Below are positions 24,618 through 33,667 of a stretch of 64,000 bases of DNA, piece by piece; the first letter of the stretch is position 1, and every line of letters begins with the position of its first letter. The stretch is from Sarea resinae (taxonomy: Eukaryota), in the NCBI GenBank assembly GCA_026026165.1, contig JAPEUD010000001.1, positions 496,001-560,000 on the forward strand, read 5' to 3'. A program made the translations under genes and the position numbers. Under the pieces are notes generated by a model. That model saw only the letters and a program-made list of their open reading frames with translations, searched no databases and was not told the origin of the DNA.

Positions 24618-24629
24618 GATCAATCTTGT

Positions 24630-25676
24630 ATGCAGCTCTCCTCGTGCAACGGCATGGAAGGAGTCAACGCCTCGGGTCGCAGAATATCGCTCTTGAACGA
24701 CGAGCCGATGCGCTTGCACAATCACTCTCGCACCTCGAGTTTCACGACGCAAATGTCGCCATCTCCGACAAGCTATTCACTTGACGCCCCTCGACTGCTG
24801 CGGCCCGATTCGGCCTCGTCGATAGAGACCACCTCGCCCGTGACGCCCTCGTACGGCATCCCGCAGCTTCAATCGCGGTCCGGAAGTCTCTCTTCGCCCC
24901 AGCTATCCTATAGCACCGCCTACGGCAGCAGCATGAACGGCTTCCCCGACTCTACCGAGTACCCTTATTACAATCACCTCAAGGCTTATGAGACGACCGG
25001 CTACCCCGAACCTCCCCAGCCGCCGTCAGGCTTCCTTCGATCTCCCCCGAAATCAAGCGCCACCTTGCAAAGCGCATCGTCCAAGATCACCAAGAAGAAC
25101 TCATACCCCTGCCCGTACAAGAAGAGCCTCGGCTGCCTCGACACCTTTACGACCTCGGGCCATGCCGCGCGCCACGGAAAGAAGCACACGGGCGAGAAGA
25201 ACGTCCTCTGTCCCATCTGCAACAAAGCTTTCACGCGAAAAGACAACATGAAGCAGCATCAACGCACGCACGAACTCGGTCGCGGCTCATCGGCCAGTCC
25301 AGCAGGCACGACTCCTGCATCGAATGCGACCAAGTCCGGAGTCGAGCCGCGAGCTTCTCGCCGAGCCAAGCATCATCCCGAGCTTCTGTCCAAATCCTCG
25401 CGGCCGCAGCGAGCAAGACCAGCCGCGGCGTCCCTTCAGACGCCCCCAACGCCATCGATGGGGTACGATTCTAGTCCGGAGATGCACTCGCGGTCAAACT
25501 CCGGATCTTGGTTTGCCCACGAATCGCGCGACCGGGAGCAGGATCGGAACAATATCTTCTTCAGCGGCGGCCTTGGCTCGCTGCAGGCGCTGGACACATT
25601 AGCCATGGCGGCAAGTGAGCTCAATTTCGAGTCGGCCACGGCCGCGCCGCCACAGCCCTATCGACTGCAGGCATAA
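24630..25676 (+). CDS. C2H2 zinc-finger transcription factor (two fingers, Nrg1-like FTTSGH motif); start may be ATG 24654
   Basis: YPCPYKKSLGCLDTFTTSGHAARHGKKH-TGEK-NVLCPICNKAFTRKDNMKQHQRTH; S/P-rich flanks; C-terminal LDTLAMAA; intronless. Confidence 0.92.
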   Translation: MQLSSCNGMEGVNASGRRISLLNDEPMRLHNHSRTSSFTTQMSPSPTSYSLDAPRLLRPDSASSIETTSPVTPSYGIPQLQSRSGSLSSPQLSYSTAYGSSMNGFPDSTEYPYYNHLKAYETTGYPEPPQPPSGFLRSPPKSSATLQSASSKITKKNSYPCPYKKSLGCLDTFTTSGHAARHGKKHTGEKNVLCPICNKAFTRKDNMKQHQRTHELGRGSSASPAGTTPASNATKSGVEPRASRRAKHHPELLSKSSRPQRARPAAASLQTPPTPSMGYDSSPEMHSRSNSGSWFAHESRDREQDRNNIFFSGGLGSLQALDTLAMAASELNFESATAAPPQPYRLQA

Positions 25677-25919: not shown

Positions 25920-27300
25920 GCAAAAGGGATTTGGGATTTGGGATTTGGGATGGGTTGTAACGGATGGGGTAACGGCGTTTTCTAAACGGGTGGCTTTTTC
26001 TCTCGTCTTTCTCTCCTTGTTTATTCTCGAGACCTACCACCCATTACACCACACCACACCACAACACACCACTCTACTCTGAGGAAGGGTTTCGGGGGGA
26101 AAGGATTCCACCATACACACAACCTTCTCTCTCTCTCTCTCTCTTGCTTATACATTAGTACACCTACGTACATAAAAACCGTCCAATCCAATCCAATCCA
26201 ATATAATCATATACACGACCGACCTACCCCACGCATCTTGAAATCACAAAATCTGCAATTCCCCATATCCCATATACCCCATCCATCCATCCATCCGTCC
26301 GTCCGTCCCAGCACAATGTAGCAAGTAAGCCCAGGACCAGCAAGCAAGGAAACCCCAACCCTCCCGTCCCTGGAGCATTCTCTCACGCCATCAACGCATG
26401 AGAACACTCTACGACGACGACAATGGACAGCAATGTCACGATCGGGGCTTTCAGTCGTCGTTTTGAATGTCTTGTGCTTTGGTTTTGGGGTTTGCATTTG
26501 GTTTTCGTTTTCGTTCTAGTTTTGGTTTTAGGACAGCGGGACAGCGGGACAGCGGGACAGCGGGACAGTGGGGTGGGTGTGGGTGTGGGTGGGGGTGCTG
26601 TATCTTCTCTCTATCTTCATCTCCTTCGCCATTGCCATCGTCATCGCCATCGTCATCGTCATTTTCACGCAGTGACGATGACATTGGAAGGTAAGGGCAA
26701 GGGAAAAGAAGGCAGGGCAGGGCAAGACAAGGGAAACAACAAAGTCTGCTAAACCGCACAAAGAAAAACAATGAGCTAATCCACCCATCACCATCTCCAT
26801 CTCCATCTCCATCTCTATCACCATCTAGCTACCTAGGTATATATAGACAGACCGACAGACCGACAGACCGACAGACCGACAGATAAACAGATAGACAGAT
26901 AGACAGATAGACAGATAGACAGATAGACAGATAAATAGATAGACGCATGCATATATAGGTAAGGTAGGTAGGTAGGTAGGTATAGTAACATGGATCAATA
27001 CATCTATAGACCGCATATCTTTTAGCGCACCTACCCTACCCTACCCTACCTTACCTAGATCAGACTACACTATCAAGTAGATCGTAATCGGGGTGGCAAG
27101 ATTGAAACTAAAAAATTGAAAATATTTTGGTGTGGGGGGGAATTCTGGGACTCAGGCGAAGGCGAAGTTGATAGGAGATAGGAGATAGGAGATGGGAGAA
27201 TGGAGAAGGGATGGTATGGTAGGTATGGTAGGGAAGAGTGAGGGGGGGAGGAGGGGGGGAGGGAGAGGTAAAGAGGTAGAGAGACAGAGAGAGAGAGATG
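25920..27300. repeat. Microsatellite/minisatellite island
   Basis: Consecutive arrays of GGGATTT, CACAC, CT, TCCAA, CCAT, GGACAGCGG, CGTCAT, CCATCT, GACCGACA, AGATAGAC, GGTA, CCTAC units. Confidence 0.9.
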
Positions 27301-27758: not shown

Positions 27759-28764
27759 TCAAGGCAAACCCCTTCCCTCATTAACCGCCTGTGCCACCTG
27801 GGACGTATTCGGTCTGTTCTCCGCATACCGCTCATAGGAATCCAGATAGAGGTCGTCAGAACTGGTTGTCGCCTTGACATGTTCATCCTCATCGACCGCA
27901 AGCAGCCACCTGGCCCAGCGCGTACCGGGCTCCGCATCCGGCCATCCTCGGTAAGGTTTGAGCACGCGCGACAATCGTAACATCCACGGCGCGAATTGGA
28001 TGTCCACAAAGGAGATGGTCAGGCCGAGGAAGAAGGGGCCGGTGGGATGGGCGGCGTCTACGAGAGTAGTGATTGCGTTTTTAAGGTCCGAGGCGTACGA
28101 CGCCTGTTTGGGAGCATCTTGGGCTTGGAGAGTGCGGTAGAATAGGGGGATGATGTTGCGATTGATCTTGAGAGTGGTGTTAGTGAGGAAATGGAAAAGG
28201 AAAGGAGGGCACGTACGTGGTCGGACCAGAGACGGCTGTGAGCGCGAAGTTGGGGATCATTGGGAGGGAGAAGCGGCTGGCCTGTCTTGAGATCCTCAAG
28301 CTGCATGTGAAAAACCTTGTCAGGGGCATTCTTTTTTTTTCTTTTGTCCCAGGACGACATACATATTCCATCAGCACGCTGCTCTCGTAGCAGCCCCAGT
28401 TCCCATGGCGCAGCGCTGGGACCAACCCGCGGGGATTGACCTCCAGTAAAGATTCGGGCTTTTTGTATGGATCGACTTCGATGTATTGGTATTGCAGGCC
28501 TTTAACCTCGAGCGAGATCCAGACGCGCTGCACAAAGGGGCTATATCAGAGTACGACAAGGGTCAGCGATAAGATAAGATGAATAGATAGACGGGTTGAC
28601 GTCATAGTCAACCGAAGATGACGGGGTCATGCTACCACTCACCAGAAACAGCTTCCGAAGAGTTTCAACTCATGCTCTCTCGAGTGCTTCTTGACCGTGC
28701 CCAGAGCATTGCCTGTCGCTTTCTTGTGATAGGTTTTCTGCTCGCGATTTTCATCGTTAGACAT
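27759..28764 (-). CDS. Glutathione S-transferase, omega-like (CPF active site); about 263 aa from ATG 28764, or 316 aa with presequence from ATG 28923
   Basis: Exons 28764-28643, 28540-28363, 28300-28217, 28166-27759: LKLFGSCFCPFVQRVWISLEVKG, VNPRGLVPAL, YESSVLMEYLED, GPFFLGLTISFVDIQFAPW. Confidence 0.92.
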
Positions 28765-29183
28765 GGTGGCTAGAGAGCGTTTGCTGGCGGCACAAGATGG
28801 GATGGAGATGAAAGAACGATGGCAGTGAGCAATTGTAATATGAGAAGAAGGATGACGATAGTGAAGTGGGTTGGCAAACAGCTGGCTGCGACGAATTTGA
28901 GCGAGAATTGAGAATGCGCCCATGAGAGGAAGAGGAGATGAATGAAGCAAGAATGTGTCAGGTGCGAAAGGTAGAGCTGACGCAATCAATAGCGTTCAGA
29001 TCTATGTAGAGAGATCGACAAAATGTGCTGCCCGCCCGTGCACATCGATGATGCGTAACAGATCATGGATGGCAACAATAATCGCAAGGGCTCGACAGAT
29101 GCCGTGTGGCTGTGGACACTGAAGCAGCGAGCGATCGTCTCGCTTATGCACCATACTAAAATCATTGAGCTTGCCGTTCTTAC

Positions 29184-30357
29184 CTGCGCCTTCTTCTTCT
29201 CCTTGTCCTCCTTCAGCATGGAGCGCATCACGCTGTTCTTCTTCACCCTGTCGCTGTCTTCGAGCGTGTGTTTGTGAGGCCCTGCTATCCCATCGCCTTT
29301 CCCATTACCCCCGTTTCCATTCACCCGTTGGATTGTGTAAAACCTCCCCCCTTGAGATCCTGGAGGGGGTGCTGGAATCCCATCACTGGAAGTCGGTGGA
29401 AGCATAGGGTGTGATTGATGCTGCTGTTGCAGTGAGGGCCCCCCTGGCTGCCCAGGCGCAAAGAAATTGCTGGAGGTCGCTGCATTAACATGAATCGAAG
29501 GAGAGGACGGAGCGGGATTAGGAAACGACTGCCCCATCCCTTCCGAGGGGAAATACTCGGTGATCTTGATCTTGACATCACACAGATCTCTTGGACGAGC
29601 GGTACGCCTTCGTTTCTTCTTATTGGGGTCGTCCGACTTCGGAGTTCCTGGGGGGCGCCCTTTCAGACGGCAATCCCAGTAATGCGAAACGAAAGGTTTA
29701 CGCTTGTAGCGCTGTGTAGAACGGTGCGAATATATATTGTCGACGTGTGGGAAGTATATCTGGAACCTTTGGCCTCTCAGTCAGAAAAGCACACTACCGC
29801 GACAATCTGTGCGCGTACTCATCTTCCGTCAAGGTGATCATTTCATTGACGTCGAACAGCTTTTGCCTCCAGTCCTCCAAGTTGGGTGGATCTGGAACCA
29901 TTTTCATGTTCTGGAAATGCCCCTCCCCCTTAGCCCCAGTCTGCTCTGGTGTTTGAAACGGATTTGCATCCTGCTGTAGCCTGCCTACGGTTGCATGTTG
30001 TATAGCGTTACGCGCGGCGAGGCCTGACTCTGGCGTCAGAACTCCAAATTGTCCTCCAGCATGCTCAGCATGCTGCTGTTGCCGAGGCGTTTGTAAAGCT
30101 GCGTTGGATGGTGAAGGGTGTAGATGGCGGTTTGGATCGAAGGCGTTGACTGGTTGAAGATGCTGCTGTCCGTGAGACGGGCCATTGAGTTCGGCCTGCA
30201 GCCGCCGCTGGAAATTCTCGGTATTGTCAAGTCCAGACAAATTCGAGGCAAGCTGCGCGGCGAGAGCGCCTTGTTGCGCTTGGGGACGGTGGTGAAGGGC
30301 TTGGAGTGCAGCAGGCTGCAAGTCTCGCAAAGCCGGAGGATATTCCGGGTCATTCAT
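29184..30357 (-). CDS. Q-rich nuclear protein with a putative WRKY-GCM1/AFT-like Zn-binding DNA-binding domain; likely spliced in frame to the downstream GST (about 628-aa fusion, 27759-30357)
   Basis: Exons 30357-29819 and 29766-29184 join in frame (intron 29767-29818): ...LTEDEFQIYFPHVDNIYSHRSTQRYKRKPFVSHYWDCRLKG...NKKKRRRTARPRDLCDVKIKITEY...RFYTIQRV...GPHKHTLEDSDRVKKNS...KKKAQ|GTAAGA. Confidence 0.8.
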
Positions 30358-31023: not shown

Positions 31024-32303
31024 TCACTGCTGCGACTCTCCCGGAAGCAGATTGCTCCTCACGGCAAACATCTTGGCGCTGACGCTAGCCGTGAAGCCGT
31101 CCACCTGTCTGGCATACTGCTCCACCTGTCGCGAGTTCAGGAGCACTTCCAGTCGGCTTGGCTCTTGTGGGAGCTTGAAGAGCCTTGTGTACTCGTCCTC
31201 GGGCAAAGGTGTCTGCTTCGCCGCAACTCGAGCCGCATTCTCGGCCTTTCGCTTCTGTTGCCACGCCGTAATCTTCGCCTGCTCTCGTCCTAGCTGACGC
31301 TGGTAGTATTGATGGTTGTTGAGCTCGGTGTGGTGTGTCTCGATGCTGTCCAAGAGGAGGTCGCAAGTCTTCTCGAGATAAGGGTCAATGGAAAGATCGA
31401 GAGAATCGAAGTTCGGGCACAGAGGTGCCTCTGATGTATTTGGATTATCGGTCAGAGCAGCCAGGCTGGATGGGAGGTCAAGCTCTTCTGTTTGGGGCTT
31501 GGAAGGTATTTGATGGAGGAAGGAAGTAAGGAGATGCGAGTTATGGACGATCAAAGGAAGCTCGACAAGGATGTCCTGGTATCTCAGATTGCTCTTTTGC
31601 AAGCTAGACAGTATATATTAGTCTTTACTCAACTCCTGACTCCTATCGACTCTGGATATACCTCTCGGTTGTGAATTTGCCTTCCTTGTACGCGGCCATG
31701 AACGCAGGGGACAATCTGAAAGCCCTCAGACTCAAGCTGCCTTGCGAACTGCGGCTGACATCATGCACAATCGCTACGGTCCTCTCATTCATCTCCTTCT
31801 GATAGTAGTATTGGTTCTCGATGAAGTTGGAGGTGACGAAGTTTCCCATGTTGGCACTGGTGTACCATCCAACATTGTTCGCGTCCACGTTGACTTCCCT
31901 CAGATGTTTGATCATCTCATTCTGATAGACTGCGTTGGATTTCGCCCTGGGCGCAGCAGCAGCCAGGTTCGAAGCGGCGTTGGATTCATGGTGGAGATCC
32001 GTGGAGGGTACATCGACCACGGGGAAAGGGAAGCAGTTGGTGACTTGGAGGGTGCCGTTAACGTCCATGCCCACTGTGGAGCCAGTCGCAATGGTTGGGA
32101 AGGTTTGCGAGCAGTGTTTGATGATTTTCATCACCACCTGGAGGCCCGGTTAGGTTTCTAAAAGCCCCATAGCGTCGAAGACTGATTTCTTGCATACCAA
32201 AGCCTCTACCTGCACTCCCCTCAGGGGAGAATCCTTGCTGCGAGAGGTCAGTTTTCGCTCGTCGAAGAACATCAAACCCGACTTACAATACGGTGTCCGC
32301 CAT
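31024..32303 (-). CDS. eIF3h: Eukaryotic translation initiation factor 3 subunit H (MPN domain); multi-exon
   Basis: [81 protein letters not shown]. Confidence 0.93.
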
Positions 32304-32734: not shown

Positions 32735-33667
32735 ATGTCTTCGCCAGATCCACCACTCCCGACCTGTCTCGACATAGCATACTCTGTAGAAAGCTTGGTC
32801 CAAAACGTCGCCGTTTGTATTCCCCATCCTCTCGAAGATGGCGATTATCAGAGCAGAATCTGGATCATGTAAGTTCTGTTCCCAAAGTGGCAGGGCCTCA
32901 CTAATCTCACTCACAGATACATCCATGGAGGGGCATGGAGAGATCCAGAAATTCTTGCAGACTCGTTCAATCCAACCCTTTTGCAATTAATGCATCATCC
33001 AATAAAGTCTCGAGTAGCGGGTTTTGCGTCCATCAACTACCGACTTTCGCCGTTCCCGTCACATCCAAGAAATCCCAGCATGCCCGAGAATCCAGCACGC
33101 AACGCACGTCATCCGGACCATATAGAGGACGTACTGACTGCCGTGTGCGCTCTTCAGCAGAGATACGGATTTGGTGAACGATATCTCCTTGTTGGGCATA
33201 GCTGTGGAGCGACCCTTGCCTTCCAGGCCGCAATGAACAAGTGGGAAGGGGATAACGGAGCAGAGGTCATTCTGCCTTGTGGGATTGTTGGTGTGGAGGG
33301 CATTTATGACCTGCCAACTTTCCGGGATACGCACAGAGACATGCCAGTCTATGAAGAGATTATTCAAAACGCATTTGGCAAAGACGAGAGGCTCTGGCAT
33401 GAAGTCTCTCCGGTTTCTTGCAATTACGCAACTTCATGGCCAAACGCGCAATTGACTCTACTCGCTCAGTCCAAAGATGATGAGCTAGTCGATGAAGTCC
33501 AGCGAACGCGAATGACAGCAGCCTTGGAGGCAGCGTCCAGCAACCCCAGTACAGGGGCCAAACGGAAAGATATACTACTTACCCTCCGGGGCAAGCATGA
33601 TGAGATATGGGAAGAGGGAACGGAGTTAGTGCGGGTGATCTTAGAGGCCATGGATCACATTGTATGA
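32735..33667 (+). CDS. Kynurenine formamidase-like alpha/beta hydrolase (Bna7-like); 2 exons
   Basis: WII|YIHGGAWRDP, FASINYRLSP, ARHPDHIEDV, LVGHSCGATLA (GxSxG nucleophile), GIYDL, QSKDDELV, GKHDEIW. Confidence 0.85.

What the first reader, a model, noticed from the sequence alone, without database searches (positions are those of the whole stretch)
28738..28923. The fusion intron doubles as coding sequence for stand-alone cytosolic and mitochondrial GST isoforms
Seen: inside the 446-nt intron are two ATGs in frame with the GST. ATG 28764 has strong context (GCCACCATG) and reads MSNDENREQ. ATG 28923 adds 53 aa (MGAFSILAQIRRSQLFANPLHYRH...SKRSLAT) rich in R/S/hydrophobics with no D/E, like a mitochondrial presequence. 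The branch point CTAAC is codons 2-3 (TCT AAC) and the acceptor CAG is codon 9 of the short form. Inference: one locus yields nuclear TF-GST, mitochondrial GST and cytosolic GST via an intronic promoter and start-site choice.
Basis: partly seen in the sequence, partly recalled or inferred. Interest (0 to 1): 0.7.

Follow-up and report, generated by a model that had tools for sequence, protein, structure and literature searches.

The report
One fungal locus, three GST forms
A fungal gene appears to make a zinc-finger regulator joined to a glutathione-handling enzyme, while the intron that joins them hides the start of the free enzyme and a mitochondrial address tag, and many distantly related moulds keep this layout.

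Summary
The 446-nt phase-0 intron (29183-28738, minus strand) joins a WRKY-GCM1-like zinc finger to an omega-type Cys-GST (628 aa). Its last 186 nt also encode a 53-aa acid-free presequence (weak-context ATG 28923) and the start of a 263-aa GST (strong-context ATG 28764). Relatives support each piece. An in-frame upstream ATG occurs in 36 of 39 distinct loci (shifted frames 3 and 1), with 0.6% acidic residues and a weak-then-strong Kozak pattern. Spliced fusion contigs exist in two other fungi. The acceptor Gln codon is CAG in 21 of 21 loci of the finger-linked group and CAA in 14 of 18 loci of a group lacking the finger. Sordariomycete-type genomes hard-wire the fusion. Corrections: the codon 2-3 branch-point overlap holds in only 6 of 19 loci, and the imported form should trim to about 265 aa. 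Not shown: RNA 5' ends or proteins for this species, mitochondrial import, DNA binding. Dual-AUG targeting is known; ten paper searches did not find this three-product locus.

The parts
29819..30357 (-). Exon 1 of the zinc-finger/fusion gene (ATG 30357; Q/H-rich region, then conserved PDPPNL..WR..LF helices)
   Evidence: conserved block; the start codon is inferred
29767..29818 (-). 52-nt intron (GTACGC..CTGAC..AAG)
29184..29766 (-). Exon 2: WRKY-GCM1-like zinc finger (C, 30-residue basic insert, C, then HxH), ending ..KKKAQ at the donor
28738..29183 (-). 446-nt phase-0 fusion intron; 5' part is the inferred promoter/leader, 3' 186 nt are coding for the free GST forms
28978..28982 (+). TGACG half-site about 59 nt above ATG 28923; relatives carry TGACG/ACGTCAT at a similar distance
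   Evidence: alone in this window it is not above chance
28765..28923 (-). Weak-context ATG (CCTCTC-ATG-G) and 53-aa mitochondrial presequence-like extension
28762..28764 (-). Strong-context ATG (GCCACC-ATG-T) of the 263-aa GST
28756..28760 (-). Branch point CTAAC = codons 2-3 of the short form
28738..28740 (-). Acceptor CAG = Gln codon 9 of the short form
28643..28737 (-). First exon piece shared by all three forms (KTYHKKATG..FGSCF)
28541..28642 (-). 102-nt GST intron, containing a full TGACGTCA palindrome at 28597-28604
28363..28540 (-). GST exon with the CPF active-site motif (Pfam GST_N_3, E 3e-17)
28217..28300 (-). GST exon between introns 28362-28301 and 28216-28167
27759..28166 (-). 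Last GST exon (GST_C), stop TGA

Best explanation
One locus, two transcription units, three proteins. (1) A transcript from the upstream promoter splices 29183 to 28738 and makes a 628-aa protein: a WRKY-GCM1-like zinc finger with a basic insert, fused to an omega-type Cys-GST; probably nuclear. Shown in relatives as spliced contigs, inferred here. (2) A second promoter in the 5' part of that intron makes a shorter mRNA that starts within about 120 nt above ATG 28923. Inferred. (3) On that mRNA some ribosomes start at the weak AUG 28923 and make a 316-aa precursor that is imported into mitochondria and trimmed to about 265 aa; the rest scan on to the strong AUG 28764 and make the 263-aa cytosolic GST. 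Inferred from sequence signatures that match the known fungal leaky-scanning pattern. The last 27 nt of the intron therefore serve as branch point and acceptor and as GST codons 1-9. The layout is old within Pezizomycotina and has resolved both ways: Capnodiales-like loci keep only the two-start GST, Sordariomycete-type loci keep an intron-free fusion. The likely role of the fusion is a glutathione/thiol-redox-responsive DNA-binding regulator; that step is inference only.
For: Upstream in-frame ATG 30-70 codons above the short-form ATG in 36 of 39 distinct loci, against 3 of 39 and 1 of 39 in the shifted frames; D+E 0.62% against 4.1% and 4.3% in the same DNA read in shifted frames. By group: 19 of 19 Pleosporales-like, 11 of 13 Capnodiales-like, 6 of 7 others; net charge +3 or more in 35 of 36; only 7-16 of 53 residues identical to the window's in 9 comparisons. 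Base -3 is a pyrimidine at the upstream ATG in 31 of 36 and A at the downstream ATG in 33 of 36; no out-of-frame ATG between them in 33 of 36, 19 expected. A phase-0 GT donor follows the finger in 19 of 19 finger-bearing genomic loci, window included; 96 of 150 finger-profile hits read V[S/R/C] at that point. Contig L004 encodes an uninterrupted 619-aa fusion with the window's junction, and raw ORF P0160 is 100% identical to it over 173 aa and then runs into the intron there. In Cenococcum a 637-aa fusion (NCBI and Logan) and a 266-aa short form (Logan, 9 contigs up to 1407 nt) share 254 of 254 GST residues. Acceptor Gln codon CAG in 21 of 21 against CAA in 14 of 18. Raw ORFs with the finger running straight into the GST: 8 clean cases among 150 hits, plus 7. 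Seven loci have the neighbouring eIF3h gene inverted directly above the GST, no finger in between, and still carry the presequence. TGACG at -140..-30 in 25 of 36 loci, 7.9 expected.
Against: No RNA evidence for this species: the one run offered held mostly other organisms' contigs and none across the fusion intron. No 5' end was mapped in any species, and intronless short-form contigs could in principle come from intron retention. 32 of the 39 loci come from two orders, so counts are not independent. L009, L069 and L079 lack the upstream ATG, as do L001, L013 and L019, which were outside the count. The window lacks the ACGTCAT heptamer found in 15 of 19 introns. The fold match is weak (best Z 4.3; first model best Z 3.4 to unrelated chains) and Pfam has no hit on the finger. 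No targeting predictor was available; the hydrophobic moment of the presequence peaks at only 0.5.
Confidence: 0.8

Rival explanations
1. In this species these are two adjacent genes: a free zinc-finger gene ending in the 'intron' (439 aa) and a dual-targeted GST. The fusion splice is vestigial or rare.
For: The public model holds only the 263-aa form. No RNA joint for this species. A 439-aa unspliced product is open.
Against: The unspliced tails are 11-146 aa with no shared sequence between distant loci. Donor, branch point and acceptor are canonical and in phase. Spliced and hard-wired fusions exist in relatives and the acceptor codon is constrained.
Confidence: 0.1
2. Fusion and cytosolic GST are real, but the upstream extension is not a working mitochondrial signal in this species (vestigial, or ATG 28923 lies above the transcription start).
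For: 6 related loci lack the upstream ATG. The window's extension alone is a 5% event in shuffles. No predictor was run.
Against: The window's extension has the same signature as 35 relatives: no acids, net +6, weak -3 C, no intervening ATG, Arg close to the second Met.
Confidence: 0.06
3. There is no intronic promoter; short forms come from intron-retaining or otherwise processed transcripts of the upstream promoter.
For: No 5' ends were mapped. Short-form contigs do not show where transcripts begin.
Against: A retained-intron mRNA has the long finger ORF and four further intronic ATGs above 28923, which scanning would not pass (general knowledge). Loci without the finger keep the two-start GST as a free-standing gene. 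A conserved non-coding motif sits above the upstream ATG in otherwise unalignable introns.
Confidence: 0.04

Closest known systems
Fungal dual-AUG mitochondrial/cytosolic genes (Wallace et al. 2020, PMC7049704; passages read)
   Same: Weak upstream AUG, targeting sequence, strong in-frame downstream AUG; sometimes backed by alternative transcription starts.
   Different: Here the whole two-start 5' end lies inside the intron of a longer fusion gene and overlaps its 3' splice signals. 'glutathione' occurs 0 times in that paper's main text; its supplements were not read.
Insert-containing WRKY-GCM1 family: Aft1/Rcs1, Aft2, Rbf1, FAR1; isochorismatase fusions in filamentous fungi (Babu et al. 2006, PMC1702500; passages and section 10 read)
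   Same: Four-strand sheet, two Cys separated by a basic insert, HxH, a helix before strand 1; fusion to an enzyme domain proposed there as a sensor.
   Different: The partner is a GST ('glutathione' and 'GST' occur 0 times in that paper's main text), there is a second variable insert between strands 3 and 4, and the fusion is optional by promoter choice.
Omega-class cysteine GSTs: PDB 6SRB (E 6e-70), human GSTO1 (E 1e-27); AbGSTO1 of Alternaria brassicicola (PMC4470081; passages read)
   Same: CPF active-site motif, GST_N and GST_C domains. AbGSTO1 is a deglutathionylase induced by isothiocyanates and H2O2.
   Different: No fusion or mitochondrial form is mentioned in the passages read. Whether AbGSTO1 is this gene's ortholog was not tested. 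That 6SRB is Trametes GSTO3C is recalled; the tool lists it as uncharacterized.
SKI7/HBS1 and PTC7 (Marshall et al. 2013, PMC3597508; abstract and outline only)
   Same: An ancient fungal one-locus, several-protein arrangement that some lineages resolve into single-product genes.
   Different: Those cases rest mainly on alternative splicing; here the switch is an inferred intronic promoter plus AUG choice, with three products and three compartments.

Membership tests
Dual-AUG leaky-scanning mitochondrial/cytosolic genes | Two in-frame AUGs with an open frame between them | tested here: met
   Window; 36 of 39 loci
Dual-AUG leaky-scanning mitochondrial/cytosolic genes | Weak upstream and strong downstream Kozak context | tested here: met
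   Window -3 C and -3 A; 31 of 36 pyrimidine upstream, 33 of 36 A downstream
Dual-AUG leaky-scanning mitochondrial/cytosolic genes | Presequence composition (Arg/Ser-rich, acid-free, net positive) | tested here: met
   MitoFates/TargetP not available
Dual-AUG leaky-scanning mitochondrial/cytosolic genes | Ribosome initiation at both AUGs and mitochondrial import | not testable with these tools
   No ribosome profiling or localisation data
Nested transcription unit (intronic promoter) | Capped 5' ends inside the intron | tested here: inconclusive
   Only assembled contigs were available; indirect support
WRKY-GCM1 insert-containing family | Two Cys separated by a 20-70-residue basic insert, plus HxH | tested here: met
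   180 of 187 proteins with the full region; spacing about 30; all four ligands invariant in 80 sequences
WRKY-GCM1 insert-containing family | Four-stranded sheet with a helix before strand 1 | tested here: met
   Predicted models, mean pLDDT 69.5 and 65.8
WRKY-GCM1 insert-containing family | Structural match to solved members | tested here: inconclusive
   Top of 48,161 chains is AtWRKY1 6J4E, Z 4.3, rmsd 2.8, 61 of 61 aligned; Aft2 Z 3.8, rmsd 4.7, 87 aligned; tied with unrelated chains. 10 WRKY chains among the top 19 Foldseek rows, none at E <= 0.001. ESM lead CaRF/ALS2CR8 0.88
WRKY-GCM1 insert-containing family | Conserved W in strand 4 | tested here: inconclusive
   Y in the window and in all 12 rows; W in Sordariomycete-type relatives
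WRKY-GCM1 insert-containing family | Sequence-specific DNA binding, nuclear location | not testable with these tools
   None
Omega-class Cys-GST | GST_N and GST_C domains with active-site CPF motif; omega GSTs among the closest solved relatives | tested here: met
   (C41-P42-F43 invariant in 31 sequences)
Omega-class Cys-GST | Deglutathionylase/thioltransferase activity | not testable with these tools
   None

The most novel reading that the evidence does not exclude
The fusion is a previously unstudied glutathione-redox-sensing transcription factor of filamentous ascomycetes. Its Cys-GST domain is the sensor and dimerisation module. A stress-inducible (CRE-like) promoter in its own intron produces free GST that goes partly to mitochondria and partly stays in the cytosol, where it can pair with the fusion's GST domain and titrate the regulator. 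One locus would thus couple nuclear, cytosolic and mitochondrial thiol status.
Probability: 0.25. Interest if true: 0.82.

Novelty: new variant of a known kind. Interest (0 to 1): 0.64.

Why it matters
Public gene models split this locus inconsistently: 78 of the top 120 homologs are fusions, 37 short forms and 5 other, and few carry the presequence. So a widely conserved candidate regulator and a mitochondrial omega GST are both hidden, and any deletion of 'the GST' in Aspergillus, Alternaria or similar fungi removes up to three proteins at once. It is also a clean case of sequence serving as splice signal and as code, with release of the constraint where the fusion was lost (CAG to CAA), and of lineages resolving a multi-product locus in opposite directions. 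Every step can be tested by point mutation in a laboratory mould.

Tried and rejected
RNA check: one run offered (share 0.10); 10 contigs laid, 7 under 90% alike, no joint across the fusion intron, no cover at 28768-29223; uninformative. Strict conservation of CTRAY at codons 2-3: rejected, 6 of 19; 17 of 17 Pleosporales-like loci instead have TGAC made by ATG-AC with the A 15 nt from the acceptor, 12 of them with no canonical CTRAY; L054 has its CTRAY above the ATG. A conserved finger-only C-terminus: rejected. Pfam and PDB sequence searches of the finger: no hit. First fold model: no informative match. The idea that the finger binds the conserved intronic motif: not favoured, since TGACG also occurs above finger-less loci. 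Search for a free short form of the Sordariomycete-type GST: 67 hits, mostly exon fragments or finger-GST ORFs, no clear stand-alone form; weak evidence of absence. A prediction of finger-GST packing was not obtained, so no statement is made on it. Second copy in the own genome: one locus each for finger and GST. Rows dropped before the 36-of-39 count: 22 of 80 loci without the N-terminal anchor, L004 (spliced), 11 near-duplicates, 8 with under 210 nt upstream; the window itself is one of the 39; L002's short-form Met was set by hand. Literature: ten searches found no description of this fusion or of its isoforms; subscription papers and all supplements were not seen. PMC6176087 (passages) concerns a different Candida GST intron. 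Tree: deep branches unresolved, so no order of events is claimed.

Full report
Observation. The locus is on the minus strand. A donor at 29183 and an acceptor ending at 28738 define a 446-nt phase-0 intron with CTAAC at 28760. Joining exons gives stop-free products of 628, 316 and 263 aa; leaving the intron in gives 439 aa. The 263-aa form is identical to P0001, labelled Sarea resinae by NCBI. The 53 residues between the two ATGs hold 5 Arg, 1 Lys and no Asp/Glu; by itself this is a 5% event in base shuffles. The genome has one copy each of the finger and the GST.

The two domains. The downstream part is a GST (Pfam GST_N_3, GST_C_2) with an invariant CPF motif; its closest solved relatives are 6SRB (E 6e-70), a thiol-dependent reductase (E 1.5e-38) and omega-1 GSTs. 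The upstream part has no Pfam or PDB sequence hit. It has two Cys about 30 residues apart around a basic stretch and a later HxH in 180 of 187 proteins, and models show a four-strand sheet with a preceding helix. With a short-insert relative, the top of 48,161 chains was AtWRKY1 (Z 4.3, rmsd 2.8, 61 of 61), Aft2 scored Z 3.8, and 10 of the top 19 Foldseek rows were WRKY domains, none significant. ESM features pointed to CaRF/ALS2CR8 at 0.85-0.88, a lead only. This fits the insert-containing WRKY-GCM1 family as described by Babu et al. (PMC1702500). 'Transcription factor' is an inference from that.

Is the fusion real? Of the top 120 homologs, 78 are fusions, 37 short forms and 5 other. Fusion models come from Pezizomycetes, Geoglossomycetes, Leotiomycetes, Lecanoromycetes, Eurotiomycetes, Dothideomycetes and Sordariomycetes (genus labels; class assignment from my knowledge). 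Most are predictions, so I looked for other evidence. Contig L004 encodes an uninterrupted 619-aa fusion with the junction KKTQ|KTYHKKA. Raw ORF P0160 is 100% identical to it over 173 aa and then runs into non-homologous sequence at exactly that point, which marks L004 as a spliced form. In Cenococcum the 637-aa fusion is recorded from NCBI and Logan, a 95%-identical fusion lies on a 2405-nt Logan contig, and a 266-aa short form lies on 9 Logan contigs of up to 1407 nt; fusion and short form share 254 of 254 GST residues. A phase-0 donor follows the finger in 19 of 19 finger-bearing genomic loci, and 96 of 150 profile hits read V[S/R/C] there; 25 run into the GST motif, 22 were unclassified and 7 lacked the motif. 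The Gln codon at the acceptor (N-Q-G-G-D) is CAG in 21 of 21 distinct loci of the finger-linked group and CAA in 14 of 18 loci of the group without a finger; relatedness inflates these counts. In 8 raw ORFs and 7 the finger runs straight into the GST with no intron; they resemble named Xylariaceae, Trichoderma, Colletotrichum and Madurella fusions, which form a 100/100 clade. Their taxonomy is inferred from resemblance.

Is the intron coding? From 80 metagenome loci plus the window, 39 distinct loci had the GST N-terminus and at least 210 nt upstream (drops listed under Tried and rejected). 36 have an in-frame ATG 30-70 codons above the short-form ATG, against 3 and 1 in shifted frames; D+E is 0.62% against 4.1% and 4.3%, Arg 9.5% against 5.4% and 3.3%. 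Lengths are 36-70 aa, net charge is +3 or more in 35 of 36, and identity to the window's extension is 7-16 of 53 in 9 comparisons: character is kept, sequence is not. Base -3 is a pyrimidine at the first ATG in 31 of 36 and A at the second in 33 of 36, and 33 of 36 have no out-of-frame ATG in between, 19 expected. This is the leaky-scanning pattern reported for Cryptococcus and Neurospora by Wallace et al. (PMC7049704). Gene models that read through the same stretch in Aspergillus, Macrophomina and Phyllosticta show similar extensions (P0104, P0062, P0097). Against: 32 of 39 loci belong to two orders by best-hit affinity; L009, L069, L079 lack the ATG, as do L001, L013, L019 outside the count. 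The window's extension ends R-S-L-A-T-M, which matches the R-3 cleavage motif as I recall it; cleavage would leave about 265 aa.

Is there a promoter in the intron? Not shown. Indirect signs: donor-to-ATG distances are 291-536 nt while the gene's other introns are 50-102 nt. ACGTCAT occurs in 15 of 19 introns, though not in the window; TGACG lies at -140..-30 in 25 of 36 loci, 7.9 expected, and at -59 in the window. That this is an ATF/CREB-type site is recalled. The window has 122 ATG-free bases above 28923. The order eIF3h, finger, GST holds in the window and in 9 distinct Pleosporales-like loci; in 7 loci eIF3h is inverted directly above the GST, no finger lies between, and the two-start GST persists. 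So the unit that begins in the intron can stand alone. The only RNA run was uninformative.

The branch-point overlap. CTRAY at codons 2-3 holds in 6 of 19 loci. All 17 Pleosporales-like loci have TGAC formed by ATG-AC with its A 15 nt from a codon-6 CAG. Many Aspergillus and Penicillium models place the acceptor just above the Met (for example P0058, P0079, P0112). The overlap of splice signals with the GST start is general; its register varies.

Mechanism and status. Shown from sequence: all signals and frames in the window. Shown in relatives: spliced fusion, intronless short form, hard-wired fusion, free two-start GST. Inferred: intronic transcription start, leaky scanning, import and trimming, nuclear DNA binding, redox sensing. 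Ten paper searches did not find this locus described; subscription papers and supplements were not seen. Verdict: a real feature, built from known parts in an undescribed combination; new variant of a known kind, interest 0.64.

Noticed in passing
window 28597-28604: A full TGACGTCA palindrome (within ATGACGTCA) in the 102-nt GST intron, which is longer than the gene's other short introns; one of 6 ACGTCAT/ATGACGT sites in the window.
   Followed up: no
window 31024-32200 (-): eIF3h gene directly upstream of the finger gene; same order in Pleosporales-like loci, inverted in finger-less loci, and downstream of the GST in L044/L045.
   Followed up: partly
P0186, P0203, P0214, P0220, P0235, P0288: A second, divergent type of finger-GST fusion (up to about 800 aa, longer linker); three of them group at 98/95 on long branches. 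Possibly a paralog; taxa mostly unnamed.
   Followed up: partly
P0191, P0193, P0237, P0257: Sordariomycete fusions have lost the otherwise invariant GST C-terminal tail and evolve faster, as if the GST domain changed role once fusion became fixed.
   Followed up: partly
P0296 / P0312: A 381-aa ORF with the window-type junction and no introns, on Logan contigs of up to 14.6 kb; could be a genome that lost all introns of this gene.
   Followed up: no
L023-L056, fusion intron: A near-palindromic element CGTCAT-NN-TGATGC is kept in otherwise unalignable introns of Pleosporales-like loci.
   Followed up: partly
window 26000-27300: About 1.3 kb rich in microsatellites (GATA/GACA, CCAT, GGTA, AG runs) between the GST 3' end and a C2H2 finger gene at 24618-25676.
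   Followed up: no
window 32873-33667 (+): Alpha/beta hydrolase ORF (BD-FAE, Abhydrolase_3) divergent from eIF3h.
   Followed up: no
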